The notes under the pieces were generated by a model. The model saw only the letters and a program-made list of their open reading frames with translations, was not told where the DNA came from and did not search any database. DNA of 64,000 nt, taken from a virus (lineage: Duplodnaviria > Caudoviricetes). How positions within the stretch are numbered: the first letter of the stretch is position 1; each line of letters begins with the position of its first letter. Location: positions 1-64,000 of the IMG/VR virus record IMGVR_UViG_3300020044_010179; one strand, 5' to 3'. Both the position numbers and the translations under genes were made by a program. This document shows positions 18,070 through 40,232 of this stretch, one piece after another.

Positions 18070-18143
18070 GCGTCTGTAGCTCCAATTGGTAGAGCATCGG
18101 ATTCCAAATCCGAGTGTTAGTGGTTCAAATCCATTCAGGCGTG
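18070..18143 (+). tRNA. tRNA-Trp(CCA)
   Basis: GCGTCTG/CAGGCGT acceptor, GCTC/GAGC D-stem, TCGGA-TTCCAAA-TCCGA anticodon arm and TTCAAAT T-loop. Confidence 0.9.
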
Positions 18144-18183
18144 CAAGTGCAAGAGTTCTTTGACATATAAAAATTTAAAAAAC

Positions 18184-18597: not shown

Positions 18598-18626
18598 TTG
18601 GCTTTTAAAATTTTTTTTCGTATATT
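18598..18626 (+). promoter_or_regulatory. Sigma70-like promoter TTGGCT-N17-TATATT
   Basis: The same 17-bp spacing recurs at 12168, 17012 and 37667 ahead of gene starts. Confidence 0.65.
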
Positions 18627-18649
18627 CCATTATAAAAAAGGAAAAACCA

Positions 18650-19734: not shown

Positions 19735-19739
19735 AAAAT

Positions 19740-19979
19740 ATGGGAAAAATAATATTGGAGTTTGACTCTATTGAAGAACAAGATGATGCAAGAATGGCAT
19801 TAGATGGTATTAAATGGAAAGTAGCTATGTGGGAATTAGACCAATTACTTCGAAGTGTAACAAAATATGGTACTTTTGATGGTAGAGAAGCTACAGCAGC
19901 AGAACAAGACATGGCTTTTAAAGTAAGAGACTCTATCAGAGATATATTAAATGAATCCAATTTAAACTTAGATGATTAA
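19740..19979 (+). CDS. Hypothetical protein
   Basis: 79-aa ORF in the operon. Confidence 0.55.
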   Translation: MGKIILEFDSIEEQDDARMALDGIKWKVAMWELDQLLRSVTKYGTFDGREATAAEQDMAFKVRDSIRDILNESNLNLDD

Positions 19980-20184
19980 ATAGTTATGAACAAATGGTAT
20001 AATTATGGGAAGTGGAGACATCCTGAAAAACGTAAAGAACTAATGAAAAATATGAATAAAGAACAAGCAAAAGACGAGTTAATCAAAGTATTGTACTCTC
20101 AAGTAGTAGATCTAACCATGATGTCCAAAATTGAATTGGGAGATGATGTGATAGCAGAAATTAAACGACTAAACGAGATTATCA

Positions 20185-21243: not shown

Positions 21244-21354
21244 AATTTATAAAAACAATGAAAAATATGAATAAAACAATATATCACTCAATCTTACATT
21301 TACTAGCGGGAATTACAATAGGTTATTTAATGTTTTCATAAAATTTAAAACAAT

Positions 21355-22317
21355 ATGTTTCAAGATACTAAAGGAAGACTACCTGAAAAGAAAATAGTAA
21401 CAGTAGTTGTTTATAGAAAACCTACTGGAAAAAAATATTATCTATTAACAACGGAAGATTCAATAATTACTATATTGAATCCATCTAAACGTAAACCTCT
21501 TTTACCCGATAATTTTGAAATAATTGATATAGGAATGGGAGAATCGTACATTGAAAAATATAAAAAATTATACAAAATAAAATGAAACCAGTATACATGC
21601 ATGGAGAAAACGCCTACATTATTGTAGGGCAAAAACCTGTTAATCATTTTGCTAAAACATTTGGAGACCACCCCAATATGGAGTATGTTCAAATGTATAT
21701 GAATTGGTTAAAATGTGATCACGTGTTGAACAATCAAACACATTTTCTGTTTTGTGAAACAATAAAAGAAGCTGAATTAATAGAGGAAAATTAAAAATAT
21801 GATATCACCACAATCAATCCGAAAAGGAGTTACAATTAAATTTGACAATGTAGAAGTAGATAAAGCTACTATCATTAAAGCAAGTGAAGAATGGAAGGAA
21901 AGCCATGAAATTCTATTTAAAAAACTACTTAAACAAGGTGGTTCATTTAAAATCAACGGTGTTTTAGTTGAAGTTAAACCTACAGACAAAATGTTAACAT
22001 CTCGTGGTGAACAAGATGGTGGTGTGATTCAAGTTGATGCTTTTGCAAGATTTTAAGGACTAGATTTCTTAAAATATCTTTCGTATATTCCCATTAAATA
22101 AAAGGGAATGAAATCAATATTAAATAAAAAATTAAGAGGCAAACCTGAACCGGAATTCATTATATTAAATGAACACGCTCAGGTTTACTGTGGCTTAAAA
22201 GGCGGCTATCCTCAATTTACCGATGACTTTAATGAAGCTAGATCCATTGAAAGAGATGAACAGCTAAAAACGATTCAACGAGGGACTTTATTTAAATTAG
22301 AAAAAATACTTTTATAG
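21355..22317 (+). CDS. Four small hypothetical ORFs (21355-21585, 21582-21794, 21799-22056, 22108-22317)
   Basis: Consecutive co-oriented ORFs with tight spacing; no motifs recognised. Confidence 0.55.
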
Positions 22318-22379
22318 AGGGAATAAGAGATTTGAAAAGGAATTCGTATATTATAGTATAAATTTAAAAAAAGAAAGAT

Positions 22380-22553
22380 ATGTTTTGGTTTTTATTCGTG
22401 ATCGTGTTATTATTTATTGGGTTTCTTTACAACGCTTTAGAATACCTACAGAAAATGTTTGAAGAGCTACGTGAACCAGATACTAGACATATAGGAGTTG
22501 GTAGATTGATTTCTGTTGTAATTGTATTCATAGCATTAGCAATGATTTTTTAA
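22380..22553 (+). CDS. Small two-TM membrane protein (57 aa, not in the ORF track)
   Basis: MFWFLFVIVLLFIGFLY...LISVVIVFIALAMIF, behind its own cassette. Confidence 0.55.
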   Translation: MFWFLFVIVLLFIGFLYNALEYLQKMFEELREPDTRHIGVGRLISVVIVFIALAMIF

Positions 22554-22619
22554 ATAAAGGAATAAGAGATATAAAATAGAATTCGTATATTGAAGTATAA
22601 ATTAAAAAAAGAAAAAGTT

Positions 22620-23429
22620 ATGAAAATTCAAAAAAGAGAAATGAAAACAGAGCGCAGAGGTCGTCCAAAAAAACAAGTTGAAATTGCAACATTCGATTCA
22701 ACTCAAGTAAAATTACTTAGAGGTAATGATTTATCATTTAATGAATCATTGTTTGTTCCTTTAAAAACGAATACTGAAATTGATTTAATTTTATCTACTG
22801 ATGGTGGATTAATGCCAGGCATAAGCATAATGATTGCAGGAGGGCCAGGTTCAGGTAAATCAACGTTAGTGTTAGATATGTTATCTAAATTTACAATGCA
22901 AGGTTTAAAATGTTTGCTAGTACAAGGCGAAATGGATCAGATAGGTCATTACAAATACTGTCGAAGAATGCCTTCATTTGGTTGTATTCAAACATTGTTT
23001 TTAAAAGATCATATGGATGATATCAAAGAAACAGTTGAACATGTATTTAATTTAGGATACGATGTAATAGGAATTGATTCAATTGCTGAAATTTTAGATA
23101 TGTATAAAGATCAAAACGGAGGTACATCAAAACAAGCTGAATCTTGGTTTTTGAAGTTACAAGATGAAACGAAAAAAGGCGGTAACGCACAAGGATATTA
23201 TACATCGTTCATCAACATCCAACAAATGACTAAATCAGATGAATTTGCAGGATCAAACCGATTAAAACACATGATGGAAGCATTTTGCAAAGTTGAACGT
23301 AGTAAAGATGGATTAGAGCGTTCATTGCACTTTGAAAAGAATCGTGATTGCGACAAGGATTTTAAAGTGTTTTTTTCAATATATAAGGAAGGAGTACATT
23401 ACTCGTTTGAACTAGAAAAAGAAGATTAA
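22620..23429 (+). CDS. RecA-fold ATPase (RadA/Sms-like) with N-terminal AT-hook-like motif
   Basis: Walker A GGPGSGKST, Walker B IGIDS, GSNRLKHM resembling RadA GPxxLEH, and N-terminal RRGRPKK. Confidence 0.7.
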   Translation: MKIQKREMKTERRGRPKKQVEIATFDSTQVKLLRGNDLSFNESLFVPLKTNTEIDLILSTDGGLMPGISIMIAGGPGSGKSTLVLDMLSKFTMQGLKCLLVQGEMDQIGHYKYCRRMPSFGCIQTLFLKDHMDDIKETVEHVFNLGYDVIGIDSIAEILDMYKDQNGGTSKQAESWFLKLQDETKKGGNAQGYYTSFINIQQMTKSDEFAGSNRLKHMMEAFCKVERSKDGLERSLHFEKNRDCDKDFKVFFSIYKEGVHYSFELEKED

Positions 23430-23619
23430 TCAAGGAATAGGGAGAGCAATCTCCCTTTCGTATATTCAATTAAATAAAAAAGGAAAACTATGAGCTGTTC
23501 AGGAGGAAAATCAACTAAAAAAGGCGGTTACAATAAAGCAGATAATTTAAAAAAACCAACCGGATACACCGTTGATAAAAAAGGAAATGTTAAACCAAAA
23601 TACAATTAAATAAAAAACT

Positions 23620-24363
23620 ATGAAATACAAATTTATTCCAGTCGATAACGACTTAAACAAAGCAATTGCATTTGCTAATTCGCTTGATCAAAACAATGTT
23701 ATTAATGTTCAAAAAATTAAACAAAAGGAATTTTATATTCCAACACTAGATGTAATTACAAAATTACAAGATAGTGGATGGCATTTAAAAGGCGTTGCTG
23801 AACAAAGAGGAAAAAATAGGAAAATATCAAATAACTTTATTCAACTACAACATCCTGATTTTGCAATACAAAACAGTCAAGGTAAAAACGAAGCATTTAC
23901 TTCAATTACACTATCAAATAGTTGTAACGGATCATCTCCACTACAAATGGATTTAGGAACGTATCGTTTAGTATGCAGCAATGGAGCAATTGCGTTTGAC
24001 GGATTTGAACAAAATAAAATTAAACATACTGAAGTTAATTATAGAGATTTAGATCGTTTAGTTGCATCAATGAATGTTAGAGCAAGTAAATTATTAACTG
24101 ATGTAAATGAAATGAAACATACAGGACTATCAATTGAAGATATGCGAAAATTAGCTCGCAACGCAGCTAGTTTAAGATATAGTAATTTAGATGAAATAAA
24201 CATTGATGATTTATTTGCAGTTAGTAGAGTAGAGGATGAAAGTAATGATTTATGGACTGTATTCAACAGAATTCAAGAAAACCTAACACATGATATTACA
24301 AACATGAAGGAAGATATCAAATTGAATCAACAACTGTTTGCATTAGCTGAAACATTTGCTTAA
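23620..24363 (+). CDS. DUF932/DUF945-family protein, paralog 1
   Basis: IPTLDVITKL, LSNSCNGS, GTYRLVCSNG and DLWTVFNRIQE. Confidence 0.75.
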   Translation: MKYKFIPVDNDLNKAIAFANSLDQNNVINVQKIKQKEFYIPTLDVITKLQDSGWHLKGVAEQRGKNRKISNNFIQLQHPDFAIQNSQGKNEAFTSITLSNSCNGSSPLQMDLGTYRLVCSNGAIAFDGFEQNKIKHTEVNYRDLDRLVASMNVRASKLLTDVNEMKHTGLSIEDMRKLARNAASLRYSNLDEINIDDLFAVSRVEDESNDLWTVFNRIQENLTHDITNMKEDIKLNQQLFALAETFA

Positions 24364-24417
24364 GGAATATTTTATGTAAAAAAGTTTTCGTATATTGAAG
24401 TATATAAAAAGAGAAAT

Positions 24418-24609
24418 ATGAATTTACATCCAGTTATACAAGAAAGCCAATTACCACAGGAAACTAAAGAATTCCTCCAATATCTATTGGAGGATGAATT
24501 TAACAGTGATTTTAATTTATTGCTAGAAAACATGATGGAACATGCTGTGGGTGATGAAGAATATGAATTAGCAGCAGAAATTAGAGATTATTTAAAAAAA
24601 TACAAATGA
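24418..24609 (+). CDS. Small UVR-domain-like protein
   Basis: AVGDEEYELAAEIRD matches the UvrB/C motif. Confidence 0.6.
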   Translation: MNLHPVIQESQLPQETKEFLQYLLEDEFNSDFNLLLENMMEHAVGDEEYELAAEIRDYLKKYK

Positions 24610-25250
24610 CAGAAAAAGAAATACAATTACTCGGTTTTAAACGAGAAGATATGAATGATGGAGATTATTCTGGATATTACTATGCCTATAGAATAGCAAA
24701 TGGATTTGAATTCCTATCAAATGCAAACGATGAAATAGGAGAAGGTGAGGAATGGTTTGTTGAATTTTTTAATTCAGACCCACAGATCCGTTTCGATGAA
24801 TTTGGTGAAGTGCAAACATTGATTAATTTGATTGAAAAAAAAGTAGTAAAAAGGGAAGTGAAGGTATAAAATAAATTTCGTATATTAAAGTAAATAAAAG
24901 AAAAAATAAAAGTTATGGCTAAGAAAGAGAAAAATGTGATTGAAAGAAAGTTTATGAATATCAAAACGAAGTTTAAATCGGGTGATTTTGATATAGTGGA
25001 AATGGATGGTTTAACGTGTGATTTAATCGCTCATTTAGCCCAACTAACATTAAACGGAGTAACTGAAGTTGAAGGTGTTCCAATTGATCTATACAAAGAT
25101 AGAACTTGGTGGATTGTAGAAAACATTGGACTATTGCCTGAATATAGAGGACCTAAAGATGAAGAAGAAGAGGGTGAAATTGTAGATGATTACTACTCAA
25201 ATGACGATGAAATTGAAGTAGAAATAGACGACAGCAAATTTTACCGGTAA
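24606..25250 (+). CDS. Two acidic hypothetical proteins (24606-24869, 24915-25250)
   Basis: Co-oriented ORFs; the second has its own promoter cassette. Confidence 0.55.
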
Positions 25251-25359
25251 ATTAATTTTAAAAGTAATGTACAGGAAATTAGGAGATTTAAAAAAGTTTT
25301 CGTATATTATAGTATAAGAAAAAGGATAAATAAGTTATAAATTAAAAAAAGAAAAAGTT

Positions 25360-26172
25360 ATGTTAGATTTAAGCAATCAAGAGTTTTTAAGTACAGAAGA
25401 AATTAAGCAACGCGCTTCATCAATCTTCTCAACAACAGCAGCACCTACGGTGTCCGACAAGTTCACGCACATTCCAACGTTTAAAGTAATTGAGGATATG
25501 GCAAAATTAGGTTGGGATGTAGTAGATGCTAAACAAGTTAAAGCACGTAAAGAGGAAACACGTGGTTTCCAAAAACACCTAGTAGTATTTCGTAACAACG
25601 ATGTAGTAATTAATGGAGCAGACGGAGATACAGTTTTTCCACAAATCCTATTAACAAATTCCAACGATGGAAAAAATGCATTTACATTCACAGCAGGTTT
25701 GTTTCGAATGGTATGTGAAAATGGTTTAGTTATTTCAACTGAGCAATTCAATGATGTTAAAATGCGTCACATGGGATACACGTTTGAGGAATTGCAAGGT
25801 CAAATCAAAGAGATGGTTGAATTGTTACCATTAACTGTTGAATCAATGAATAAAATGAAAGCAATTGAATTGAACGAAGATCAAACCAAAGCATTAGCTA
25901 AAAAAGCATTATCAACACGTTTCACAGAAGAGCAAGTTGAAGCATTTAAAATTGATATTGACAAATTACTAGAGCCAACACGACCTGAGGATAAAGGAAA
26001 CGATTTATGGTCAGTGTTTAACGTAATACAAGAAAAAATATTAGATGGTGATTTCACATACATAACAGGTGCTAAATCAAGAAAAGCACGTAAAGTGAAA
26101 AATTTCAAACAAGATATGGAAATTAACCAAAAATTATTTGCAATGGCCGCTGAATATACAGTTGCGGCCTAA
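25360..26172 (+). CDS. DUF932/DUF945-family protein, paralog 2
   Basis: HIPTFKVIE, LTNSNDGKN, GLFRMVCENGL and DLWSVFNVIQE. Confidence 0.8.
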   Translation: MLDLSNQEFLSTEEIKQRASSIFSTTAAPTVSDKFTHIPTFKVIEDMAKLGWDVVDAKQVKARKEETRGFQKHLVVFRNNDVVINGADGDTVFPQILLTNSNDGKNAFTFTAGLFRMVCENGLVISTEQFNDVKMRHMGYTFEELQGQIKEMVELLPLTVESMNKMKAIELNEDQTKALAKKALSTRFTEEQVEAFKIDIDKLLEPTRPEDKGNDLWSVFNVIQEKILDGDFTYITGAKSRKARKVKNFKQDMEINQKLFAMAAEYTVAA

Positions 26173-26181
26173 GCAACACAA

Positions 26182-26260
26182 AAGTAGATGACCATGAATA
26201 TGAAACCAAATAAACTAAAAGCGCCCACAGTGGTACATGGATCAGGCGCTTTATCTACTT
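26182..26260 (+). ncRNA. Candidate pseudoknotted RNA element
   Basis: AAGTAGAT/ATCTACTT encloses the crossed helices GACCATG/CATGG(A)TC and AAAGCGCC/GGCGCTTT. Confidence 0.55.
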
Positions 26261-26263
26261 GTT

Positions 26264-26336
26264 AGTCAGGTGTACTTAAATGGAAAAGTACCTAACGCTT
26301 AATTAGGAAATGCAGGTTCGATTCCTGTCCTGACTA
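26264..26336 (+). tRNA. tRNA-Lys(CUU)-like, non-canonical
   Basis: AGTCAGG/CCTGACT acceptor, CCTAA-CGCTTAA-TTAGG arm (G33 instead of U33) and GCAGG-TTCGATT-CCTGT. Confidence 0.65.
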
Positions 26337-26365
26337 CAAAACTGCTTCATAACCAGTTTTCTTTC

Positions 26366-26395
26366 CCCACCTGATGCGGGTTCGGTGGGTTTTTT
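26366..26395 (+). terminator. Intrinsic terminator
   Basis: CCCACC...GGTGGG stem followed by TTTTTT. Confidence 0.7.
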
Positions 26396-26452
26396 AAATA
26401 AAGGAATAGTTGAAGCAAAAGAAATTTCGTATATTATAGTATAAAAAGGAAA

Positions 26453-27145
26453 ATGAAAGAAAATAAAAGTTTAGAATTAGGTACAATTTTATTTTTAATA
26501 TTTTTAGTATTAAAATTAACAAACAACATTAGTTGGTCGTGGTGGTGGGTAACAGCCCCATTATGGATTCCAATTGCATCCATTATTTTAATAGTGGGGA
26601 TTGCAGTATTAATTGGATTATTTTTTTACTTAAAAAAATGAATAACGTAACACCGAGAGTCAGAATACACAAAAATATCAATGAACTAATTGGACGTATA
26701 GCAAATAGTAATTGCTTTTCTACAATGAGAGGAAAATTCATTTATATTAAAGACGATCGATGTTATTTTGAAATGGTAGCAAACGATGTTTACCCAAAAT
26801 ATAATTATTGTGCTGGTAAAATAGAGTATTTACTTGATCACATGGTAGCAACAATGAAATTTGAAGAAGATGAAAGCATTTAACGCAGAAAATGATAAAG
26901 AATTTGGAATAGAAAGATTTTCAATGAAATTTGGCAATGGAAATGCTATTTCTGTTGTATTTGGAAAAGGAACATATTCCGATCAAGGAGAGACAACAGC
27001 TGAAGTAGCAGCTTGGAATAGTAAGGGTGATTGGATGTTATTTCAAAATGAAAAATGGATTACACTAGAGCAAGACCACGACGTTATGCCCAGATGCACA
27101 CCTGGGGAAGTTGCTGAAATGATATTTACTTTAAGTAAACTTTAG
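26453..27145 (+). CDS. Three small ORFs: two-TM protein 26453-26641, 26638-26883 and 26861-27145
   Basis: Coupled starts and stops behind the cassette at 26426; WSWWWV TM motif in the first. Confidence 0.6.
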
Positions 27146-27208
27146 TGAAGGACAAGGATTATTGAAAGAGAATTCGTATATTATAGTATAAATAAAAAAA
27201 TAAAGGTT

Positions 27209-27970
27209 ATGAAAGACACAGAAAATTTTAAAGATCCGAATCAATTGGATCTATTTGCAGGCATTGTATTAACTGTAGAACAGCAAAGTCAAGTTAATCG
27301 CAATATTGATAACATAAACCAAAGTACTAATTGGCAAAGAAATAAAGTACAACAAATTGAACAGTTGCTTGTTGAAGCAGGTTTTAAAAAGGGAATTGAT
27401 TTCGAAAACACATTCAAATCATCCCTAGAAACAAGAAATATTAAAATAGGATACGGAAGTGGACAATTTGAAACAGAGGTTACAGCTGAATTTCATTCAG
27501 GTGATGTTGTGTTGAAAGGTTTAAGATTTTTTGATGGTAAATTAACAAATACTACATTTAATATTGATATTGATAACGATAAAGTTCAATGCTATACAGT
27601 TCAAGGTCACTCTCGTTATATTAAACCTAAAACATTACTTGAAAAACTTAATCAACACAATGAATGTCAAAAAGATCGTTTAAAAGATTTTCAAAATAAA
27701 ACAAATTTAAAACAAATTATAGTTGAAAAATATACCAAACTATACCCAAATGCTACAATAACAGTTAAAAGTGATTGGACAAAATATAGCGGCTCGTTTG
27801 AAGTTATTGAAGTTAAATTTGAATCAGGAAGTTACATTCAGTTTAGATTAGATACATACAACAATAAAGAATATATATACAAGAAACACGATGCTGAGTT
27901 TGATAATTTAAATTCAGAGGAATTGTTAAATAGATTTTCAAAACAAATAAAAAAGGAAGCTCTCAATTAA
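27209..27970 (+). CDS. Hypothetical early protein
   Basis: 253-aa ORF behind a cassette. Confidence 0.65.
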   Translation: MKDTENFKDPNQLDLFAGIVLTVEQQSQVNRNIDNINQSTNWQRNKVQQIEQLLVEAGFKKGIDFENTFKSSLETRNIKIGYGSGQFETEVTAEFHSGDVVLKGLRFFDGKLTNTTFNIDIDNDKVQCYTVQGHSRYIKPKTLLEKLNQHNECQKDRLKDFQNKTNLKQIIVEKYTKLYPNATITVKSDWTKYSGSFEVIEVKFESGSYIQFRLDTYNNKEYIYKKHDAEFDNLNSEELLNRFSKQIKKEALN

Positions 27971-28423
27971 GAGAGCTTTCGTATATTACAGTAAATAAAA
28001 AAGAAAGTTATGAAAGAAAATAGATTATCAAACAACAATTATGGGGTATTTTGTATTGCCGCTCAATTAGAACAAAACAATAGAGAATTAGATGTTTTAT
28101 GGGACAAAGCACTTAAACTGTATGATGAATTTCAAAATAGTAAATTTAATAATCCCGAAGAATCGGAATTGGAATGTATCAATGAATTTTTAAATAAAAA
28201 ATAAAGAAATGACAGAATTTGAAGAAAACAATCCAGAACAGTTAAAATTATTTTTAACCAAGTTAAATGAATTAGTAGATGAATTCCCCCCAAACATTTA
28301 TTTGTTAAATGGTGTATCAAGAGGATTTCAAACCATTGCAATTGCTATTTTAGATGAATTAAATAAGGACAAAGAAATTTAAAAAAGATTTCGTATATTA
28401 ATCGTATAAAAAGAAAAAAAGTT

Positions 28424-29269
28424 ATGAAAAAAAAGAATTTATTTCAAGCAGTAAAAACATTTGTCAATGACACACCAAGAGGTGAAACATTTACAACAAA
28501 AGAATTAATTGCAAGTGTAGGTAATCAAGAAGATTCAACACAGTGGAAAAGATGGAATAATAATCCAAATTATAGAACACACACATACAAGGCCTATTTA
28601 AAACGAACCGGATTTTTATCTAATCCAAAATATGGTGTATGGGAAGTTAAAAAACACATACCTGGTTTTGTTAATTTAGGTACAATTGAGTTTTTGGTTG
28701 GATATAAAAATTATAAGAATAAATACAATGGCTTAACTGAACAGCAAATAAAAGATAAAATAGAGGAATTCAATAAAAAACGAAATTGTGTTTGTGGAGA
28801 GTGTATTGGCTACATTGATGGAGAAACAACACAACAATTACTAGAGAATATTGGAATGGAAGGTCAAATGTTACGTCAATTAATTATGTCTCAGCCAATA
28901 AATGAAGTAAAATATTTAATAGAGGAACGAGAAGATTTAGAAAAAGTTCGTATATTGAATGAAATAAAAAAAGAAAAAGTTATGAAATTTGATTTTGAAA
29001 AAGGTAAACAGGAATTATTAGAATATTTTGAAATGGAATATTCACAAGCAACAATGTATTCACTAGATTATATTAAGTCATGTGATGATATGGATGATGT
29101 TGAAAGTGAAGTAAAATCGTTCAATTCCTTTAAGGAAGAACATAGTAAAAGGTTTACAAGAATCAATCGTGCCTCAACACTATCGTTAATATTTGAAGCG
29201 TTAGATGATACTAGTTTAGAGGATGACGATGAAAGAATTTTATCATTTTTTATTGAAGGACTACAATGA
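28424..29269 (+). CDS. Hypothetical protein; reads in frame through an internal cassette, with a second start at 28981
   Basis: Internal TTCGTATATT at 28947 and AAAAAGTT-ATG at 28981. Confidence 0.6.
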   Translation: MKKKNLFQAVKTFVNDTPRGETFTTKELIASVGNQEDSTQWKRWNNNPNYRTHTYKAYLKRTGFLSNPKYGVWEVKKHIPGFVNLGTIEFLVGYKNYKNKYNGLTEQQIKDKIEEFNKKRNCVCGECIGYIDGETTQQLLENIGMEGQMLRQLIMSQPINEVKYLIEEREDLEKVRILNEIKKEKVMKFDFEKGKQELLEYFEMEYSQATMYSLDYIKSCDDMDDVESEVKSFNSFKEEHSKRFTRINRASTLSLIFEALDDTSLEDDDERILSFFIEGLQ

Positions 29270-29380
29270 GAAAGTCAGCTAAACAACAAGTAGAGGAAAT
29301 CGAAATGGCAAGATTTGAAATGTATATGACATTGTTCTTGCTCAATTTAGGAATAGAAACAACAAATTAAATAAAATAAA

Positions 29381-29803
29381 ATGGGAAGTGTATTAGATTA
29401 TATTGAATGCCCGAATTGCAAATTAGAGGCAATGGATGACTTTTATTACAAAACAGGAGAGGAATATGTAAACTGTGGTAACTGTGGATACCATTACTCA
29501 GCAACAATTAAAAATAGAGAAAAACGATTGGATCTATTAACTGATAAAGATTGGAAAATTACTGAATTGAAAAAACCATACGGGTCATATAGAATAAAAT
29601 CATATGATGGAGTTGGGTATTTAGGAGGTTCGTTATCAAATAAAAAAGAATTTATTGAATTGAAAACGAATTGCGAAACTGATACAAATATAGAGACTTT
29701 AACAGTTAGTCGTTTTTTAAATGGTAAAATTAAATTTGAAACAGTAATTGATAATGGGCCTAAAGTAGATGGAGCTGGTTTTACAGTTGAAGATAGGGAA
29801 TAG
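29381..29803 (+). CDS. Zn-ribbon protein
   Basis: CPNC...CGNCGY. Confidence 0.65.
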   Translation: MGSVLDYIECPNCKLEAMDDFYYKTGEEYVNCGNCGYHYSATIKNREKRLDLLTDKDWKITELKKPYGSYRIKSYDGVGYLGGSLSNKKEFIELKTNCETDTNIETLTVSRFLNGKIKFETVIDNGPKVDGAGFTVEDRE

Positions 29804-29853
29804 AAGATATAAAAGAAATTTCGTATATTAAGGTATAAATAAAGAAAGAAATT

Positions 29854-32800
29854 ATGTCAGAAGTTAAATTAGAAAAAGTTACATTTGAGTTCACTCAAGA
29901 AGAACATTGTTGTTCAAGTGATATGGATGGAATAGAGTTACTTACAATTGAATGCACATCAGATTTGGGCATTACAAATACAGAAGGAGCATATTTTGTT
30001 TTGAAAACAGAACAATGGGCCATTAATGACATTGATGAGTTAAAACTATTATTTGACAAAATTGAACAAGCTATAAACATAGTAAAATAGAGAAGCTATG
30101 ACAGAAAAGGAATTAAGAGAAACATGGGAAAAATATCAATCCACAGCACATCCAGAAGACATGATGTCGTATGTTGAATTTTTAAGTGAACAAGGAATAG
30201 AATTAGAAGATTAATTTTCGTATATTACAGTATAAATAAAAAAAGAAAAATTATGTCAACAAGATCAAGAATAGGAATTGAAAACCAAGACGGAACAACT
30301 ACATCAATTTATTGCCATTTTGATGGCATGATAGATGGTGTTGGAGCAGTATTACAGAAACACTACACTAATCGTTCAAAAGTAGAACAATTAATAGCAT
30401 TAGGGAGTATTTCATACATAGCAGAAAATGTAAATCCAACAGGTGAACATAGCTTTGCTCAACCTGAAAAAGGTGTTGTAGTTGCCTATCACCGTGATAG
30501 AGGTGAACCATTTGATCAGCAAATAAATCAAAGTGTTCCTAACCTATTTAATTGTATCTATCAATCATGTGAAGAATTAATATATTGCTTTACTAAAGAT
30601 AACATTTGGTTAGTTTCAGATCTTCGTGTACATCGTAGTCCAGTAGTTGATTTAAAAGTAGCAATTGAGGAAGGGCTTTAACAAAAGCTCTTTCGTATAT
30701 TATAGTATAAATAAAGGTTATGAAAAAGAAAGATATTATTGAATTATTACAAAACAAAGAAGCAGTAGCTTATTTAGATCTACAACAGTACAACGACAAT
30801 TTTGGTGCTGATCATCGATACACAACACTATCAAGACGAACATGGGGTGTTTTAGTAGAAATAATGGCAGAAATGAAAATCAAACCAAACATGGAATTAG
30901 AAGCAAATAAACAAGCTCAAGAAATGGTTTTAGACAGATATAAAAGAGAATATCTACAAAGATGAAACAAGGTGACAAAGTAAAATGCATATCATACTCA
31001 GGTGTTTGGACGTTGGTGTGGTATAAAGAAGGCGACACAACGTGTGCTATTCAAAATGAAACCCGACGTTACGTTGTTAAAACATCTACTTTAACCTTAG
31101 TAAAGGAATAAGAGATACAAAAGAGAATTCGTATATTACAGTATAAATAAATTTAAAAAAAGAAAAAAGTTATGAAAATTACAAGCAAAACATTAATGGT
31201 AGGCTTCCAAACAGAAGTAAAATTAGGCAATAATGATGCAATTGAGTTAACATTAATACATCAGGCATATATTAGTAGAGATAAGCTAGGTGGATTATCT
31301 GTTGATTTAGATTTAGGTATAGATATTGATAATGTAAAATTTCTAGGAATAGATATTGAATCGGATTATACATCATTTAAACAATTCAAAGCACAACTAT
31401 TAGAATTAGGAATTGATTTGAATAAATTAATTGAAGAAAAAGAAGCAGAGTTAATTACTAATGGAATAGAAAACGAATTAAAATTATTATTTAGAAATAA
31501 CGAATTATAGTAAAGGACGAAGGAGCATAAGCTCCTTTTCGTATATTACAGTATAAATAAATTTAAAAAAAGAAAAAAGTTATGAAAAAAGAAAATTTAA
31601 TTGAACAATTAAACGCAGCAAAGGCATTATCATCACAAGTTGATATTGATAAAGTAATTGAATTGATTAAGCAAATCGAAACAGGAGGACTTACAGCAGA
31701 ACTAGCTGAGGAGATTGCAGATCAGATCGAAAGATCATTGGATAACAATTCATTGAATGATTTGGTTGATTGTGATAGTGCAGAATTTGAAATAAACTAT
31801 GATAACCGAGTTGAATTGATAGCCGCGGATGTTAATGTGTCAGGAATCATGGATCATGTTACTGCCTGCTTAGACAAGTTTATCCAGAAGGAAGAAAAAG
31901 ATTTACAAGTTGAAGCATATAATGAAAACTTTGGATCAGAACAAAATGAAGATTAATAAAATAAGTAAAGGAAGCCCTCAATTAAGAGGGCTTTCGTATA
32001 TTAAAGTATAAATAAAGAAATTAATATAAATTTAAAAAAAGAAAAAAGTTATGACAAAGTTAAATGGATTTGAATCACATGCAATTATTACAGGATTAGA
32101 AATTTATAAAAATACATTAAAGCAAGAAATAGCAAATGCAGAAGCAGCTGGTAAAAGGCCGTTTATGACACAAGGATTTGTTGATATGCAAATTGACGAA
32201 GTGATTGGTAAAATCAAACTAATGACTAAGAAAGATAGATTTGCTGTTACCAACCGCAATTAAACTATCCTAAATATATAAATTATGGAAGATCTACAAA
32301 CCTATTTAAAGGAACTTGTTAATGAAGGCATTATACAAAATGATGTAAAGGACGAGATATTGTTTTTGGTAAAAAAGCTAATTAAGGAATAAGCTTATTA
32401 AATTAAATTTCGTATATTACAGTATAAATAAAGAAAATAAAAGAAAAAGTTATGAGCAAATTCAAAGAATTAAGATTAAACGCACCTAAATTAACTATTA
32501 AAGAAGGAGCAAGGGAAGTAATATTCAAAACAATATCATGTATGTGTGATAATGTTGGACATTTAAGATTTAAGAAAAACAGTGATGGTGATTTTAAACT
32601 AGATGGTAACGGATTTGCAGTATCAAATTGGCAAATGAAAAATGAAAAATATGAAATTGAATGGACCGCAGATGAAGGTGGATGGGATAAAGTGATAAGA
32701 ATGATTAACTCAGGCACATCAGCAATCGAATCAGTAATAAGTAGATAATAAATAAAAAGAAAAATTATGTTTAAAACAATTAAATTGACATCATTTCACA

Positions 32801-33402
32801 CCAAAACACCTATCTACATAAATGTGGAAATGATAGGAGACTTATCAGAGGTAGAAGAAAAAGACTTTAACCGTGAGCCAAAAAAATACACCAGTATAGG
32901 ACACCTAACACATAACAATGGTGGATTTAAAGTAATTGAAAGTGTAGAGGAAGTATTTAAAAGAATCAAAGCAGAGGAATAAGCTATTTAAAAGATATTT
33001 CGTATATTATAGCATAAATAAAGAAAATAAAAAGATATGTATAGTTTAGATTGTAGTTATTACACAGCAGAATTTGAGACATTAGATGAATTAATAGAGG
33101 CTGTAATGTATAGTGGAATGGATCCAAGTTACGAGGTAACATTTAATGGAGAAGGCATTGGGGAACAAATAAGTGATTATTTAATGTATTAAAAAGAAAG
33201 CATGAAACAAACAGCAGTAGAATGGTTGATAGAAATATTTAAAATTACCAATGTTAAATTATCACATCATACATTAATTATTGAACAAGCTAAAGAAATG
33301 GAGAAAGAGCAGATAAAAAATGCCTGGTTAAATTCATTAACTAAAGGTGATTACAATTCATCAGAAGAATACTATAACGAAACATTTAATAAAAAAACAT
33401 GA
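29854..33402 (+). CDS. Run of small cassette-headed hypothetical ORFs (29854, 30253, 30720, 31172, 31582, 32051, 32452, 32767, 33202 and shorter ones)
   Basis: Each begins just after a TTCGTATATT cassette or a coupled stop. 30253-30681 (MSTRSRIG..YCHFDG) resembles a widespread phage hypothetical family. Confidence 0.6.
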
Positions 33403-33859
33403 AAGAAGGATTAGAGAGATTATTAAAAGAAACTATAAAAATGATAGAGGAGATTAGAGAAATACCTAACGGAGATTATAAAACAGGATATATCCAGGCA
33501 TTACTAAATACAAAATCATTATTAGAATATGAACTAGCTATAGTGGAAAATTAAATGAATAAACGTGTATAAAACGCAAAACATTAATTAACATAGGGAC
33601 TATCAAAATTAAGGAGATTATCGTATATTAACGTATAAAAAGAGATTAACGTATGACAAGTAGATCAACATGGGGAACGAAGATTATCAACAGGGATATT
33701 ATTAGAATGAAAATCGTTAATGGTATGTGGAAAATGGGAAACGCAATGGATATTGTAAGGAATTGTTGGGGATAACCCTTCCATGCAGCAGCCACGCACC
33801 TTTACATGTCTTTCCAAAAGTATATACAAAACTTGTGAACATAACGTGAACATAGTGGA

Positions 33860-33936
33860 AAAAAATTAAAAGAATGTTAAAAAGAAATTAAAAAAATATT
33901 AAAAAAAATTGGGATACCTGGGATATTTCGTATCTT
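33860..33936 (+). promoter_or_regulatory. Promoter variant (TTCGTATCTT) with phased A-tracts upstream
   Basis: A-tracts end in TT at 33866, 33877, 33888, 33899 and 33909 (11,11,11,10-bp period); -10-like TATCTT at 33931. Confidence 0.65.
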
Positions 33937-33942
33937 ACCATA

Positions 33943-34185
33943 TGTATTAATGAGTACGATGGTATCTCCCGCAATGGAAATAGAAACGGGCAACGCAACA
34001 GCTTTAGGACACAGAAAGGCGCCACTTAGTAAACAAAACGCAGTAGAAACATCAGTATTCGTGTGTGAATGAGTATGTAAGGCGATCATTGAAAACTTCA
34101 CACCGCGATTATAGCCAAACGTGGCGCTTGGATTATAAAGTAAAAAAGCTTGCACAAGAGATGTAGGCTATCGTTCTGCTTAAGG
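33943..34185 (+). ncRNA. Candidate multi-stem non-coding RNA of about 240 nt
   Basis: Nested helices AGCTTT/AAAGCT, AGGCGCCAC/GTGGCGCTT and GTGTGAA/TTCACAC, plus pseudoknot ATAGCC/GGCTAT. GC-richer than the flanks. Confidence 0.55.
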
Positions 34186-35022
34186 ACTAAGTTTATTAAA
34201 TGAGAATTCGTATATTATAGCATAAATAAGAAAAATATAAACTATGAATGAATTAACTGATGAACGTTATGATGTAATTGATAAACTTGCTATTGAAAGT
34301 GAATTAATAGAGTTTTTCAATTCAGTTGAAAAAATACAAAACACATTAATGAAGAATAACATTGAAGCAAAAGAACAATATGAATATCTATTGACTTTGA
34401 TGATTAATCAGTGTTAAGGAATAAGTAAAACAAATTATAATTCGTATATTATATTATAAATAAAGAGACATATGATAAATTGGACAGAAGAGCAATTGAA
34501 AGAAAAAATGAAAGAATATATCACTAAAGCAGATGATACTAGTAATGGATATCATGATAGAGATGTATTTAGAAGAATGTATTACTATTACAAGTCATTA
34601 TTAATGGATAAACAAAATGAAAACAATTGAAGTAACTATTCAGGAAATACAAGCCGCAACACGTCCAAACGTGTATAGGAATAGAAAAAAATACACTAGA
34701 AAAGATAAATACAGGAATAAGAGTATTGAAAATTAATTCGTATATTTCAGTATAAATAAATAAAGAAACATATGAAAAAAGTTGTAGTTATATTAAAAAA
34801 TCGTTTTACAGAATTAAACGAAGAATTGTTTTTATTAGAAAATAAAACAATAGTAAATCAAGAAACATTTGAAGAAATTTGCGAACAGAATTATTTTATA
34901 AATTCGGATGTGATGGCATGTTTTTATAAGAGTTGGTTTGGGAATAAGTAAATCAAATTATAGTTCGTATATTGTAGTATAAATAAAGAAAATAAATAAT
35001 TAAATTAAAAAAAGAAAAAGTT

Positions 35023-35343
35023 ATGAAAAGTGAAGTTAAAAGTGTAAAATTAGGACGTCCTGTAAATGTAAACAGTGTAAGACAAATTCGTTTAAATGAA
35101 CTAGAGTTAAAACGTAGTAACGGAGAGTTAAAACGAGGACGTCCAGTAGTTGAAAATAGTGAACGTCAATTAAGACTAGCTAAACAAGCAGAAAATAAAG
35201 CAAACGGTATAGGTCAAGGACGTCCAGTTAATTTGAACAGTGCAAGACAGATACGATTAGCGGAATTGGAAGCAAAGCGTGAATTAGGAATATGTTTTAG
35301 AGGCCGTCCAAAGCAAATTAAAGGTGATGAGTTAGCTGCATAA
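35023..35343 (+). CDS. Basic GRP-repeat (AT-hook-like) protein
   Basis: Three GRPVxxNSxRQxRL repeats plus RGRPK. Confidence 0.7.
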   Translation: MKSEVKSVKLGRPVNVNSVRQIRLNELELKRSNGELKRGRPVVENSERQLRLAKQAENKANGIGQGRPVNLNSARQIRLAELEAKRELGICFRGRPKQIKGDELAA

Positions 35344-35517
35344 GCTAACTTTACCTATTCAATCAATTAATTAATTTAAAAAAAAAGTAAATGACAAAAG
35401 TAATTTTCGTGACTTGGGGTGTGATGTTGAGTTCAGTATTAATGTATGGTGTGATTGTGGGAATAGTAAATTTGATATTAAGTTCGTATATTGGTGTATA
35501 ATTAAAAAATATAAGTT

Positions 35518-35788
35518 ATGATAGGAACAATTGTTTATGTAAGTTTGTTATTGAATGTAGTATTAATTTTAAAAGTAATAAGCAAATGATAGGTGTAGGA
35601 GTATGTATTGGTTTAGCAATGTTGTTAACGGGATTTAAGTTAATTTTAATGAGTTTATTTTCATGAGTAAGAAAGAAATTGATGCGTTGTTGATGATGGC
35701 GTTTTTACTAGAGCAAGAATTGGCTTGTGAGATTGTGTATGCACCTCACTACCTGAAATTTGAACACTCGATCATATGGGCTAATTAA
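35518..35788 (+). CDS. Three translationally coupled micro-ORFs (35518-35589, 35586-35666, 35663-35788); the first two are single-TM-like
   Basis: ATGA overlaps; MIGTIVYVSLLLNVVLILKVISK and MIGVGVCIGLAMLLTGFKLILMSLFS. Confidence 0.5.
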
Positions 35789-36001
35789 TGGAAATAGAGA
35801 TCATAACTCAGGTTCGTATATTGTGGTATAATTAAAAATGATAAGATATGAAATTTAGAATTCAAAGTAGTTACGGTCAACATTTAAAAGATTTGATCAA
35901 AGCATTCAATGGTGGTTTAATCTCATTTGACGAGATGTGTGAGTTGAACCAGTACACAATTGATAAGGTAAACATTGGTATAATAAGTAAAAAATAAAGA
36001 C

Positions 36002-36597
36002 ATGACAGCTGTAGAATTTGGATTAGCATATATTGGATTTGAGGGGTTTGGTAAGATCAAGGATATTAATTTTGCGGATGAATTATGGGGTGAGGAGATC
36101 AGTGATGGTCTTACCATTCGAGGTATTGATTTTGAGGATGGTCTGGTTAATTTAGGCACATTGGTAGAATATCCATGTGGTGGGGAGTGTTGTGGAACAT
36201 ATTGGGAGGCTGAGGAGTATAATTTAGACCAATTGGCAAGTAAAGGTCACTTAGGTAAATTGATTGATATGATGGATGATATATTAACGGTTAAAACGGG
36301 AATATAATTATTAAGATCTGATTCGTATATTGTGGTATAAATAAGATAAGACATATGATGAAAAAAGTAGACATGATTAAAACGATTCAATTGGCAGAAG
36401 CAAGAGCTTGGTTAGTACTTAAAGAATCTCAAGTAACACTTGGTAAAGATAATCCCGTAACTCAAGAGCTTAAAGAACGGTGGATGACACTTAAATGTCT
36501 AATGGGATCTTTAGATATAGACTCAGATGTTGAGTTGGCAGAATCAAAAGCCGCGCTTCAACTTATATTAGATAACTATAAAAGTACAATGTACTAG
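36002..36597 (+). CDS. Two hypothetical proteins (36002-36307, 36355-36597)
   Basis: Co-oriented ORFs; the second is behind the cassette at 36322. Confidence 0.55.
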
Positions 36598-36618
36598 AAG
36601 TACGATATAGAATCGGTG

Positions 36619-36640
36619 GCTCGCGGTTGGCGGGCTTTCG
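36619..36640 (+). terminator. Hairpin GCTCGC-GGTTG-GCGGGC-TTTCG
   Basis: 6-bp stem plus TTT, flanked by the direct repeat TCGGTGGCT. Confidence 0.45.
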
Positions 36641-36819
36641 GTGGCTATGAGAATGGATGAATTTATAAAGCAGAACAGAGACCGGATCTATAATATAGAC
36701 GGTAACCTAGATGAGGGTGATATCTCAGTTATGGGAGATGATATGGTGTTAACCTTTTACTATTTTAAAGATGGTGTGCTGGTAGGATCCAAACGCAACA
36801 CCCCACCATGGTAAGACCC

Positions 36820-36980
36820 TGGTATAAGGATGGCGGGCGGTACGGCGTATGGCGGTATATATATGGGCGTAATATGGTCGTATGGCCCCACGCGCGCCGG
36901 TGTCAATATGGCGCGTGGTGTGGTGGTCCGCGAATTATATGGCTTCACTCATCGACTACAACTCTTCACCCATCGACATT
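36820..36980. repeat. GC-rich element with six TATGG repeats, an 8-bp inverted repeat and two 14-bp direct repeats
   Basis: TATGG at 36848, 36862, 36873, 36881, 36907 and 36938; CCACGCGC/GCGCGTGG; CTTCAC(T/C)CATCGAC at 36943 and 36964. Confidence 0.75.
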
Positions 36981-37313
36981 GTATATCCTTATATATTAAA
37001 ATAAAGCATCCCCACAATGTATCCCAAATTTCAAAAGCGATAAAAAATGCAAAAATCCAAAAATTCCAAATCTTTCTTTTCAAAAAAAATGCGTGTCTAT
37101 AACAAGATATATATGTATATTAAACGAATACCATGATATACAGAATAATTAAAATACCATTTTATCTTACATTAGGCTATATTGGAATCCTACTTTGTGG
37201 AGGAATGTCTATAATTGAAATGTTTAAACACATTTTTCAATACACTAAAGAAGTAAAAATTAAATCTAACAAATCAGACCAGTTTTATTACTAATATATT
37301 TATAATAAAATAA

Positions 37314-37658
37314 ATGGCATCTTACACATACACCCAGTTATACGGATCAGGATCAATTGGTGAAAATTTTACAATTAATGTTCAAAAAACATTTACTTTT
37401 ACAAACCCAAGTGGTTCCTCATATTTTACTATGGAAACTATTCCCTCCTCTAGTGGTTTTTTTGAAGCCAGTTCCCCTAAAAACTTTAGTGGCTCATATG
37501 TAGTTTCAGAATCAATGGGACTAGTTACTTCCTCTTATATAGCTAGTATTGTTGTACAGCCAGGTACCCAAGTATTTAAATTTACTCCAGCAATCACTGT
37601 TACAGGCACTACTTACTACTTAAGAGGCACAGGAGCATATTCTCTTATCATTACTTAA
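37314..37658 (+). CDS. Ser/Thr/Gly-rich putative virion protein
   Basis: Preceded by ATATTTAT (37296); composition like the structural genes downstream. Confidence 0.5.
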   Translation: MASYTYTQLYGSGSIGENFTINVQKTFTFTNPSGSSYFTMETIPSSSGFFEASSPKNFSGSYVVSESMGLVTSSYIASIVVQPGTQVFKFTPAITVTGTTYYLRGTGAYSLIIT

Positions 37659-37726
37659 ATAGATCCTTGGCTCTCTAATCCTTTATTCGTATATTAATTG
37701 TATAAAAATAATTAAAAATAAAGGTC

Positions 37727-39437: not shown

Positions 39438-40232
39438 ATGAATCTAACCCCAGAACAAATCCAAGAAAATTGGAGTGAATTAATGGATTATATTGAAAAA
39501 TATATTTCCGAACCACGTAAAGAAAATATTCTATCATTTTATGATCAATATTCAGAACGTTTGATGTTAATGCCTGCTGCGCATAAAAAAGAATACCATA
39601 ACGCTTTCCCCGGAGGATATGTAGAACATGTTTTACGCGTTATTCGATGTGCTATTAAACAGGCTACATTATGGGAAGAAGAAGGATGTGACATGTCTAC
39701 TTTTACAACTGAAGAATTAGTATTTTCAGCACTGAATCATGATTTAGGTAAAATGGGGAGTGAAGATGAAGATTCTTATATACCCCAGACAGATAATTGG
39801 AGACGTGAAAAATTAGGAGAGGATTATATGTTCAATACTAAAGTTCCATTTGCTTCAGTTCCAGATAGAGGTTTATTTCTACTTCAATCACATGGTATAT
39901 CTTATACATTTAACGAGATGATTGCTATCCAAACTCACGATGGTTTATATGATAAAGCAAATGAGAAATATTTAATGCCTTATATGCCAGAACAAAAACC
40001 AAGAACTTCATTACCTTTTATCCTACATCAGGCCGATTTAATGGCAGCACGTATCGAATTTGAACGTGAGTGGTTACCTAAATTAAAAGAAGGTAAAAAG
40101 TCCGGGGATAAGCAAAATACTAATTTTACATTGGGGAATAAACCAAACATGTCTAAAAAATTATCAACCAAAACCAAAGCTTTAGGTTCATTTAAAAGTG
40201 AAGGTTTAAAAAATATATTTAACAGCTTATGA
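39438..40232 (+). CDS. HD-domain phosphohydrolase
   Basis: YHNAFPGGYVEH, LNHDLGK, THDG and HQAD. Confidence 0.85.
   Translation: MNLTPEQIQENWSELMDYIEKYISEPRKENILSFYDQYSERLMLMPAAHKKEYHNAFPGGYVEHVLRVIRCAIKQATLWEEEGCDMSTFTTEELVFSALNHDLGKMGSEDEDSYIPQTDNWRREKLGEDYMFNTKVPFASVPDRGLFLLQSHGISYTFNEMIAIQTHDGLYDKANEKYLMPYMPEQKPRTSLPFILHQADLMAARIEFEREWLPKLKEGKKSGDKQNTNFTLGNKPNMSKKLSTKTKALGSFKSEGLKNIFNSL

What the first reader, a model, noticed from the sequence alone, without database searches (positions are those of the whole stretch)
33860..34185. Candidate novel phage ncRNA (about 240 nt) under a curved-DNA promoter
Seen: five helically phased A-tracts, then TTCG-TATCTT (33927-33936), then a GC-richer stretch with only a 40-codon ORF. 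Nested helices are GCA..AGCTTT/AAAGCTTGC (33995-34005/34145-34153), AGGCGCCAC/GTGGCGCTT (34017/34121) and TCGTGTGTGAA/TTCACAC-CGCGA (34059-34069/34097-34108). Further pairings are AATGA/TCATT and CCCG/CGGG, with crossing pairs ATAGCC/GGCTAT (34111/34166) and ACATC/GATGT (34049/34160). It ends at the next cassette. It does not match tRNA, tmRNA or RNase P cores that I recognise. Inference: an abundant early structured RNA, for example a sponge, RNAP mimic or anti-defence decoy.
Basis: partly seen in the sequence, partly recalled or inferred. Interest (0 to 1): 0.8.

Follow-up and report, generated by a model that had tools for sequence, protein, structure and literature searches.

The report
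New structured RNA family in phages

Summary
Window 33909-34181 (+) is a promoter plus a non-coding RNA gene of about 240 nt. It lies in the early-gene cassette array of a roughly 170-kb AT-rich myophage whose nearest cultured relative is Flavobacterium phage immuto.

I collected 52 distinct homologues from viral and metagenome contigs, 130 to 265 nt long. They share:
- a sigma-70-like promoter with an A-rich upstream tract;
- a long-range closing helix P1;
- an inner helix Pc, found only in the longer forms;
- a short helix P2 that holds a nearly invariant 23-27 nt apical loop;
- an exchangeable insertion domain;
- an A-rich linker and a 3' hairpin P3.

P1, Pc, P2 and P3 all show compensatory changes well above the shuffled and slid controls. 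A U.G pair in 38 of 40 sequences fixes the + strand as the RNA strand. No reading frame is conserved. Rfam 15 and ARAGORN find nothing at the locus.

Three others are not conserved. One holds only in one clade. One crossing pairing (34111/34166) has some support as an alternative to P3. Folding energy is no better than shuffles (z = +0.24).

Expression could not be tested and the function is unknown. My best guess is a stable trans-acting RNA recognised through its invariant loop. This scan had already flagged the same stretch and a homologous locus in another genome.

The parts
33859..33908 (+). A-rich upstream tract with roughly phased A-runs (UP-element-like, possibly curved DNA)
   Evidence: Read directly. 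An A-rich block just upstream of the -35-like box is conserved across 51 homologue upstream regions. Several other clades carry ATTAAAA-type repeats about 11 bp apart.
33909..33936 (+). Sigma-70-like promoter: -35-like TTGGGA (33909-33914), a 16-nt spacer, and -10-like TATCTT (33931-33936, within the cassette-type core TTCGTATCTT)
   Evidence: Homologues keep TTGGAA or TTGTCA, 16-18 nt, then TATMTT. The core is related to the repeated cassette core. Promoter activity was not tested.
33940..33949 (+). Invariant ATATGTAT block spanning the predicted transcription start (about 33942-33944)
   Evidence: It is invariant in all 40 aligned homologues. The start site is inferred only from its distance to the -10 box.
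33950..33961 (+). P1 5' strand. It pairs with 34050-34062, or alternatively locally (33952-33957 with 33962-33967).
   Evidence: Duplex table. Cognate partners beat non-cognate partners: 0 of 20000 permutations reached the observed sum. L269 carries a strand-swapped variant. Both pairings covary in the longer forms.
33965..33972 (+). Pc 5' strand, pairing with 34040-34047 (6 of 8 pairs in the window)
   Evidence: Alignment A4 columns 25-27 with 97-99 are 90.7% paired. All three pairs show double changes, for example AU:8 and GC:8.
33989..33994 (+). P2 5' strand, pairing with 34018-34023 (four Watson-Crick pairs plus two mismatches in the window)
   Evidence: 4 of 5 pairs show double changes (AU:26/CG:14; GC:22/AU:11/CG:6). 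More than 12 different helix sequences are listed.
33995..34017 (+). Apical loop of 23 nt, nearly invariant across the family apart from a central variable block of 4-5 nt
   Evidence: Invariant positions; listing. Also retained in the divergent homologue of complete genome G009.
34018..34023 (+). P2 3' strand
34040..34047 (+). Pc 3' strand
34050..34062 (+). P1 3' strand (A34054 bulged)
34063..34134 (+). Variable insertion domain, absent from the short forms. It contains the clade-specific hairpin 34063-34069/34097-34103 and the block AUAGCC (34111-34116), which can pair with 34166-34171.
   Evidence: Alignment A3. The hairpin holds in the window and L197 clades, with an AA/UU to GG/CC exchange. 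The module also occurs behind a different 5' domain in L253.
34135..34146 (+). A-rich single-stranded linker
   Evidence: An A-rich stretch precedes P3 in all homologues.
34147..34169 (+). P3 3' hairpin (34147-34154 pairs with 34162-34169; loop 34155-34161)
   Evidence: Present in all 52 unique homologues. Five of 7 pairs have double changes and none is broken. The U.G pair in 38 of 40 sequences shows that the + strand is the RNA strand.
34170..34181 (+). Conserved 3' tail ending in CUGCU, directly followed by the next cassette (upstream box at 34182, core at 34207)
   Evidence: CTG is invariant. In several relatives the tail abuts the next cassette core or the next start codon. No terminator-like site was found.

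Best explanation
Shown: window 33909-34181 is a promoter plus a gene for a structured non-coding RNA of a previously uncatalogued family. It is read on the + strand and present once per genome in a family of roughly 166-180 kb myophages.

The RNA is one long irregular hairpin. Helix P1 closes the 5' end, Pc is an optional inner helix, and a structured internal loop leads to the short helix P2. P2 presents a 23-27 nt loop that hardly changes while everything around it does. An exchangeable insertion domain, an A-rich linker and the 3' hairpin P3 follow.

Inferred: it is made early from its own strong sigma-70-like promoter. It accumulates as a stable RNA whose ends are protected by P1 and P3. 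It acts in trans: the invariant apical loop, together with the conserved internal loop, is the surface recognised by a conserved partner. That partner is more likely a protein (decoy or scaffold) than an RNA. The competing pairings in the longer forms may let the RNA switch conformation. These are the 5' strand pairing locally or distally, and AUAGCC against P3.
For: Homologues:
- 52 distinct homologues were recovered.
- Two further divergent homologues were found.

Covariation:
- P2 plus P3 are 91% paired. Nine of 13 pairs have double changes. The covariation score is 0.405 against 0.151 in shuffles (0 of 500 as high) and at most 0.10 when slid.
- For P1, cognate partners beat non-cognate partners in 20 representatives (0 of 20000 permutations), and one clade has the strands swapped.
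- The inner three pairs of Pc are 91% paired and all show double changes.

Strand and coding:
- The strand is fixed by U.G and G.U pairs.
- No ORF is conserved.
- Nothing changes under other genetic codes.

Other:
- The promoter-like -35/-10 boxes with a 16-18 nt spacer and an A-rich upstream tract are conserved.
- The RNA is single copy in three complete genomes.
- The locus is about 98% identical to its two closest relatives, while the neighbouring DNA is about 87-93% identical.
- There is no Rfam match in the window or in 14 relatives' loci, and no tRNA or tmRNA at the locus.
Against:
- Thermodynamic stability is no better than shuffles.
- No terminator follows P3. A discrete RNA would therefore need processing, or it is simply the 5' part of a longer transcript.
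- In two lineages (L187, L297) no promoter cassette separates the RNA from the next start codon, which fits a cis-acting leader.
- The RNA is dispensable. It is absent from phage immuto and from relatives that keep the rest of the non-coding region.
- No partner is identified.
- If the host is a Bacteroidota, as the nearest cultured relative suggests, a sigma-70-type promoter would not be the expected host promoter type. That last point rests on my own knowledge, not on a tool result.
Confidence: 0.45

Rival explanations
1. It is a cis-acting leader. The structured RNA is the 5' part of an early transcript and controls what lies downstream. It would do so by modifying RNA polymerase for read-through (as phage HK022 put RNA does) or by a ligand- or factor-dependent switch between alternative pairings.
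For: - The RNA sits directly behind a promoter, and no terminator follows it.
- In L187 and L297 the next start codon follows the 3' tail without a promoter cassette. In several others the tail abuts the next cassette core.
- There are two pairs of mutually exclusive, covarying pairings: the 5' strand pairing locally or distally, and AUAGCC against the P3 3' arm.
Against: - The downstream gene differs between lineages: a 57-aa gene in the window, a 63-aa gene in L197 and the 39-aa basic protein elsewhere.
- In most lineages a separate cassette-type promoter core lies between the RNA and that gene.
- No terminator-like site was found within 33000-35000 that read-through would act on.
- There is no resemblance to any Rfam riboswitch or leader.
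Confidence: 0.2
2. It is an origin-associated RNA. The roughly 700-bp non-coding region would be a replication origin or another iteron-controlled element, and the transcript would prime or regulate initiation there, as with ColE1 RNA II or the phage T4 oriF/oriG transcripts.
For: - Relatives carry about 17 same-orientation copies of a 9-bp iteron around a conserved core that contains the palindrome GTATATAC, just upstream of the RNA.
- Phage immuto has about 24 iterons of another sequence, and the same palindrome, at the syntenic place.
Against: - The RNA is missing from immuto and from relatives that keep the core and the iterons. The element therefore works without it.
- The iteron consensus of relative L197 is not enriched in the window (16 matches against 19 expected).
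- There is no GC-skew switch at the locus.
- An invariant hairpin loop with covarying stems is not what a simple R-loop primer needs.
Confidence: 0.1
3. It is an antisense regulator. The invariant loop would base-pair with a conserved target RNA, as the phage P4 CI and P1 C4 immunity RNAs do.
For: - A long, conserved, exposed loop on a stable stem is the usual design of antisense RNAs (my own knowledge).
- A single-stranded A-rich linker and a 3' hairpin are present.
Against: - No site complementary to the loop, allowing up to 3 mismatches, exists in the window or in the five records searched, two of them complete genomes. Only the gene itself and three-mismatch hits consistent with chance were found.
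- Host targets could not be searched, because the host is unknown.
Confidence: 0.12
4. It is not an RNA gene at all. It would be a small protein gene, or DNA that looks conserved only because of recent recombination.
For: - A 40-codon ORF (33950-34072) and a 92-codon minus-strand ORF exist in the window.
- The early region is mosaic, and some protein genes there are as conserved as this locus.
Against: - Both ORFs are frameshifted in relatives that are 92-93% identical over this region.
- 41 of 52 homologues have no ATG ORF of 30 or more codons across the conserved loop.
- Four helices keep pairing through double changes.
Confidence: 0.03

Closest known systems
HK022 put RNA (cis-acting processive antitermination element)
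   Same: Both are promoter-proximal structured RNAs in a phage early region, with conserved unpaired nucleotides on stems that vary.
   Different: put is about 70 nt with two stem-loops and works only in cis on terminators downstream. Here the RNA is 130-265 nt with a different architecture. No terminators were found downstream, and usually a new promoter cassette follows. The comparison rests on my own knowledge of put; no put model matched in Rfam.
Phage P4 CI RNA and P1/P7 C4 RNA (immunity antisense RNAs)
   Same: Both are small stable phage-encoded regulatory RNAs that expose a conserved loop.
   Different: Those RNAs have complementary target sites in their own genomes. None exists here in the records searched. 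They are also processed from longer transcripts of temperate elements, whereas these genomes look like large myoviruses with T4-type baseplate genes.
Phage T4 species 1 and 2 stable RNAs
   Same: Both are stable small RNAs of unknown function in large myophages.
   Different: The T4 RNAs lie in the tRNA cluster and are cut from the tRNA precursor (my own knowledge). This RNA has its own promoter and lies 7.6 kb or more from the window's tRNA genes (17.6-18.1 kb and 26.3 kb).
6S RNA, including the Flavobacteria-specific 6S-Flavo
   Same: Both are RNAs of roughly 150-250 nt built as one long irregular hairpin, and both could be abundant.
   Different: The defining large central bubble between long stems is not present. 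The conserved part here is an apical loop. No 6S model matched, even at E-values up to 10.
ColE1 RNA II and phage T4 oriF/oriG primer transcripts
   Same: Both are non-coding transcripts that start beside an iteron-rich or AT-rich element.
   Different: This RNA is optional next to that element, and its conservation is concentrated in a hairpin loop.
Orphan phage-associated Rfam motifs (GOLLD, ROOL, HEARO and similar)
   Same: All are structured RNAs of unknown function known only from comparative sequence analysis, often in phages.
   Different: No sequence or structure match to any of the 4227 Rfam 15 models.

Membership tests
Any Rfam 15 family | A covariance-model match at or near the gathering score | tested here: not met
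   Nothing at the locus at gathering thresholds. At E-values up to 10 there is only a spurious A-rich hit at 20 bits against a cut-off of 70. No match at the RNA locus in 14 relatives' loci, only a chance sR42 hit elsewhere in L273 and two tRNAs 1.4-2 kb away.
tRNA / tmRNA | A cloverleaf or tmRNA core detectable by ARAGORN or RF00005 | tested here: not met
   The window's tRNAs lie only at 17605-18144 and 26264-26337.
Small protein-coding gene | A reading frame kept open and in register across homologues | tested here: not met
   One-base indels occur in relatives 92-93% identical over this region. Only 11 of 52 homologues have an ATG ORF of 30 or more codons across the conserved loop. Other genetic codes give none.
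Structured non-coding RNA (generic) | Helices maintained through compensatory changes beyond the controls | tested here: met
   P2 plus P3. P1. Pc.
Structured non-coding RNA (generic) | Evidence of transcription with defined ends | not testable with these tools
Sigma-70-type promoter | -35-like and -10-like hexamers 16-18 bp apart, conserved in position | tested here: met
   TTGGGA, 16 nt, TATCTT in the window. Homologues have TTGGAA or TTGTCA, 16-18 nt, TATMTT. The generic scan did not list it, because its hexamers fall below that scan's match threshold. Activity was not tested.
Terminator-ended bacterial sRNA | A GC-rich hairpin followed by a U-run at the 3' end | tested here: not met
   No terminator-like site in 33000-35000. 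P3 is followed by a conserved tail that is not U-rich.
P4 CI / P1 C4-type antisense RNA | Complementary target site or sites in the same phage genome | tested here: not met
   only the gene itself, plus three-mismatch hits consistent with chance.
Iteron-type replication origin | An array of same-orientation repeats beside an AT-rich or palindromic core | tested here: inconclusive
   Clear in L197 and in phage immuto. In the window the L197 iteron is not enriched, and only short degenerate repeats can be seen. There is no GC-skew switch at the locus.

The most novel reading that the evidence does not exclude
This would be the founding member of a new class of modular phage RNAs. A strongly expressed early RNA presents an invariant 23-27 nt loop that captures a conserved host factor, acting as a decoy or hijacking scaffold. 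Exchangeable peripheral domains and competing pairings would tune or switch that activity.
Probability: 0.3. Interest if true: 0.8.

Novelty: categorically new. Interest (0 to 1): 0.62.

Why it matters
Very few structured RNAs encoded by phages have a known role. Large environmental myophages related to Flavobacterium phages are essentially unexplored for RNA genes.

This family offers:
- dozens of natural variants;
- a clear core of three covarying helices (P1, P2, P3), plus a fourth (Pc) in the longer forms;
- an invariant loop that points to a specific conserved partner;
- natural short forms of about 130 nt that suit biochemistry and structure work.

The locus also shows module shuffling at the RNA level, since the same insertion domain occurs behind different 5' domains. 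It sits beside an iteron-rich element that may be the origin of these phages. If the partner turns out to be a host factor, this would be a new way for a phage to take over or evade its host.

The new-class label applies to the sequence and structure family only. Whether the function is new cannot be said yet.

Tried and rejected
- A blastn search of the phage collection found nothing.
A degenerate DNA pattern was used instead.
- RNAalifold on the MAFFT alignment found only P3. The other helices had to be found by anchoring on the conserved loop and by duplex tests.
- A crude all-against-all column scan was too noisy to reveal further pairs.
- A genome-contig scan for promoter plus loop gave no hit in 185,579 species genomes, so there is no host or prophage copy and no host clue.
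- No antisense targets of the loop were found.
- Alternative genetic codes gave no ORF.
- Pfam and PHROGs gave nothing significant for the flanking small proteins, only one sub-threshold WW-domain hit for the 106-aa protein.
- GC skew gave no origin signal.
- An obligate RNA-protein pair with the 39-aa basic protein is rejected. Complete genomes G006 and G009 have the RNA but not the protein, and phage immuto has the protein but not the RNA.
- A helix pairing the 3' tail with the apical loop was considered. Both partners are nearly invariant, so it cannot be tested.
- No covariance model was built. The collections that matter cannot be searched with one.

Full report
**Setting.** The window is the first 64 kb of a 75.7-kb IMG/VR viral contig judged 47% complete. 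All large ORFs are on the + strand. A baseplate-wedge protein marks a myovirus. The best match in the phage collection is Flavobacterium phage vB_FspM_immuto (160 kb), at 46% amino-acid identity to window 39438-40232 and with the same gene order. More than 400 viral contigs carry a homologue of that protein. They include complete genomes of 166 kb (with terminal repeats), 174 kb and 180 kb. Between 18.6 and 37.7 kb, about 32 small genes are each preceded by one repeated unit: an upstream GGAAT box, the core TTCGTATATT and an A-rich leader. The finding lies inside this array.

**Checking the observation.**
- The stretch 33776-34243 has no credible gene. The 40-codon + strand ORF and the 92-codon - strand ORF both suffer one-base indels in two relatives that are 92-93% identical over this region. 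Codes 4, TAG=Q and TAA=Q open nothing.
- GC rises to 39% against about 27% nearby.
- The fold is not unusually stable on either strand: z = +0.24 on the + strand and +0.49 on the - strand.
- Rfam and ARAGORN find nothing at the locus.

**Homologues.** Close relatives came from a flanking protein. More distant ones came from a downstream conserved protein. Further ones came from DNA patterns for an upstream conserved motif, for the neighbouring 39-aa protein gene, and for promoter plus loop in metagenome contigs. This gave 78 loci and 52 distinct sequences. A loop-only scan added two divergent members, one of them in the complete genome G009. The RNA is single copy in three complete genomes. 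It is absent from phage immuto and from relatives that keep the rest of the non-coding region. No copy exists in 185,579 prokaryote species genomes.

**Structure supported by covariation.**
- P3 (34147-34154 with 34162-34169) is present in all 52 sequences, in at least six sequence versions.
- P2 (33989-33994 with 34018-34023) occurs in more than a dozen versions. It encloses a loop of 23-27 nt that is nearly invariant apart from a central block of 4-5 nt.
- Together, on 40 sequences, P2 and P3 are 91% paired. Nine of 13 pairs have double changes. The covariation score is 0.405 against 0.151 in shuffles (0 of 500 as high) and at most 0.10 in slid controls.
- A U.G pair in 38 of 40 sequences would be a C.A mismatch on the other strand. 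The RNA is therefore the + strand.
- P1 joins the first nucleotides after the promoter (33950-33961) to 34050-34062. Its sequence differs between clades, and in one clade the two strands are swapped.
- Each 5' strand pairs better with its own partner than with those of other clades. Mean duplex energy is -7.0 against -5.4 kcal/mol, and 0 of 20000 permutations reached the observed sum.
- In the medium and long forms the same 5' strand can also pair with a nearby copy of the 3' strand (33962-33967). An inner helix Pc (33965-33972 with 34040-34047) appears in these forms. All of these covary.
- The two sides of the internal loop between P1 and P2 change together as modules. In one type they form a 4-bp helix. 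In another they read GAA opposite AGUA, which resembles a loop-E motif. The loop-E reading comes from my own knowledge.
- Between P1 and the A-rich linker, the long forms carry an insertion domain of about 70-110 nt in at least two unrelated versions. One version also occurs behind a different 5' domain in L253.

Tested on the same alignment:
- The outer helix (33995-34005 with 34145-34153) uses the invariant loop and the 5' arm of P3. It shows no double change and breaks whenever P3 varies.
- 34017/34121 is 56% paired.
- CCCG/CGGG is 44% paired.
- ACATC/GATGT is 48% paired. ACAUC instead belongs to P1.
- 34059-34069 with 34097-34108 holds within the window and L197 clades, with one AA/UU to GG/CC exchange.
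- ATAGCC/GGCTAT is 86-93% paired in 15 long forms, with AACC/GGUU and GGCC/GGCC variants. It overlaps the 3' arm of P3, so it can only be an alternative to P3.

**Promoter.** In 51 upstream regions a -35-like box (TTGGAA, TTGGGA or TTGTCA) lies 16-18 nt from a -10-like TATMTT. This sits inside a variant of the cassette core and is preceded by an A-rich tract. In several clades that tract consists of repeats about 11 bp apart. The invariant ATATGTAT block lies where transcription should start. This agrees with P1 beginning at 33950. No terminator follows. The conserved tail ending in CUGCU runs into the next cassette, or in two lineages into the next start codon.

**Context.**
- Upstream lies a conserved motif around the palindrome GTATATAC (33812-33829). 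In relatives it is followed by a GC-rich hairpin and surrounded by about 17 same-orientation iterons.
- Phage immuto has about 24 iterons of another sequence, and the same palindrome, at the syntenic site.
- On the - strand, the conserved motif contains a TAnnTTTG-like box, the Bacteroidota -7 promoter box (from my own knowledge). It is followed by a partly conserved His-rich micro-ORF.
- Downstream, most relatives have a 39-aa basic protein (window 34617-34736). Its distribution does not match that of the RNA.
- The loop has no complementary site in the phage genomes searched.
- GC skew does not switch here.

**Interpretation.**
- That this is a structured RNA gene of a new family is well supported, at about 0.85.
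- How it works is inference. I favour a stable trans-acting RNA recognised through its invariant loop (0.45 for the whole statement).
- Behind that come a cis-acting leader (0.2), an antisense regulator of a host target (0.12) and an origin-linked RNA (0.1).
- Expression data would decide most of this and could not be obtained.

Noticed in passing
window 33560-33860; L197:1630-2070; L330:1150-1750: Upstream of the RNA lies a conserved core around the palindrome GTATATAC (window 33812-33829). In relatives it is flanked by about 17 same-orientation 9-bp iterons. In Flavobacterium phage immuto it is flanked by about 24 iterons of a different sequence, spaced about 11 bp apart. This is a candidate replication origin or iteron-controlled regulatory region. 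The window itself has only degenerate repeats.
   Followed up: partly
window 33665-33784 (-): A partly conserved minus-strand micro-ORF of 32-41 aa, rich in His, starts at the conserved CCAT. It lies about 30 nt downstream of a TAnnTTTG-like box in the reverse complement of the conserved motif. The start codon is missing in some relatives, so coding is uncertain. The + strand 40-aa ORF at 33653-33775 is not conserved in L197.
   Followed up: partly
L155:1360-1405; also L232 and L237: In relatives without the RNA, or upstream of it, the same ATATGTAT promoter block drives a 14-aa Gly/Cys-rich micro-ORF. It is conserved through several synonymous changes and may be leaderless.
   Followed up: no
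window 34617-34736; L257:5230-5640: The 39-aa basic protein is widespread, including in contigs of about 290 kb. There it is preceded by a tRNA and then by an unrelated long hairpin ending in a U-run. It is also present in immuto. No Pfam or PHROG family matches it.
   Followed up: partly
L253 (reverse strand, about 200-450 nt after the conserved motif): The same promoter block and the same insertion-domain module as in the long forms occur here, but behind a completely different 5' domain that lacks the invariant loop. RNA modules appear to be shuffled between loci.
   Followed up: no
window 18617-37697: About 32 copies of a promoter/leader cassette (GGAAT box, TTCGTATATT core, A-rich leader) each head one small gene. 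The genes between them differ between close relatives, so the array is mosaic. For example, window genes 34244-34630 are missing at this place in L002.
   Followed up: partly
window 17763-17866: Rfam calls a 104-nt tRNA here (33.4 bits) that ARAGORN does not report. It is probably a tRNA-like gene with a long insert.
   Followed up: no
window 35023-35343; L197:2664-2987: A 106-aa protein made of three to four repeats of a basic GRPVN...RQ.R motif is conserved downstream in several relatives and duplicated in some. No significant family match, only a sub-threshold Pfam WW_1 hit.
   Followed up: no
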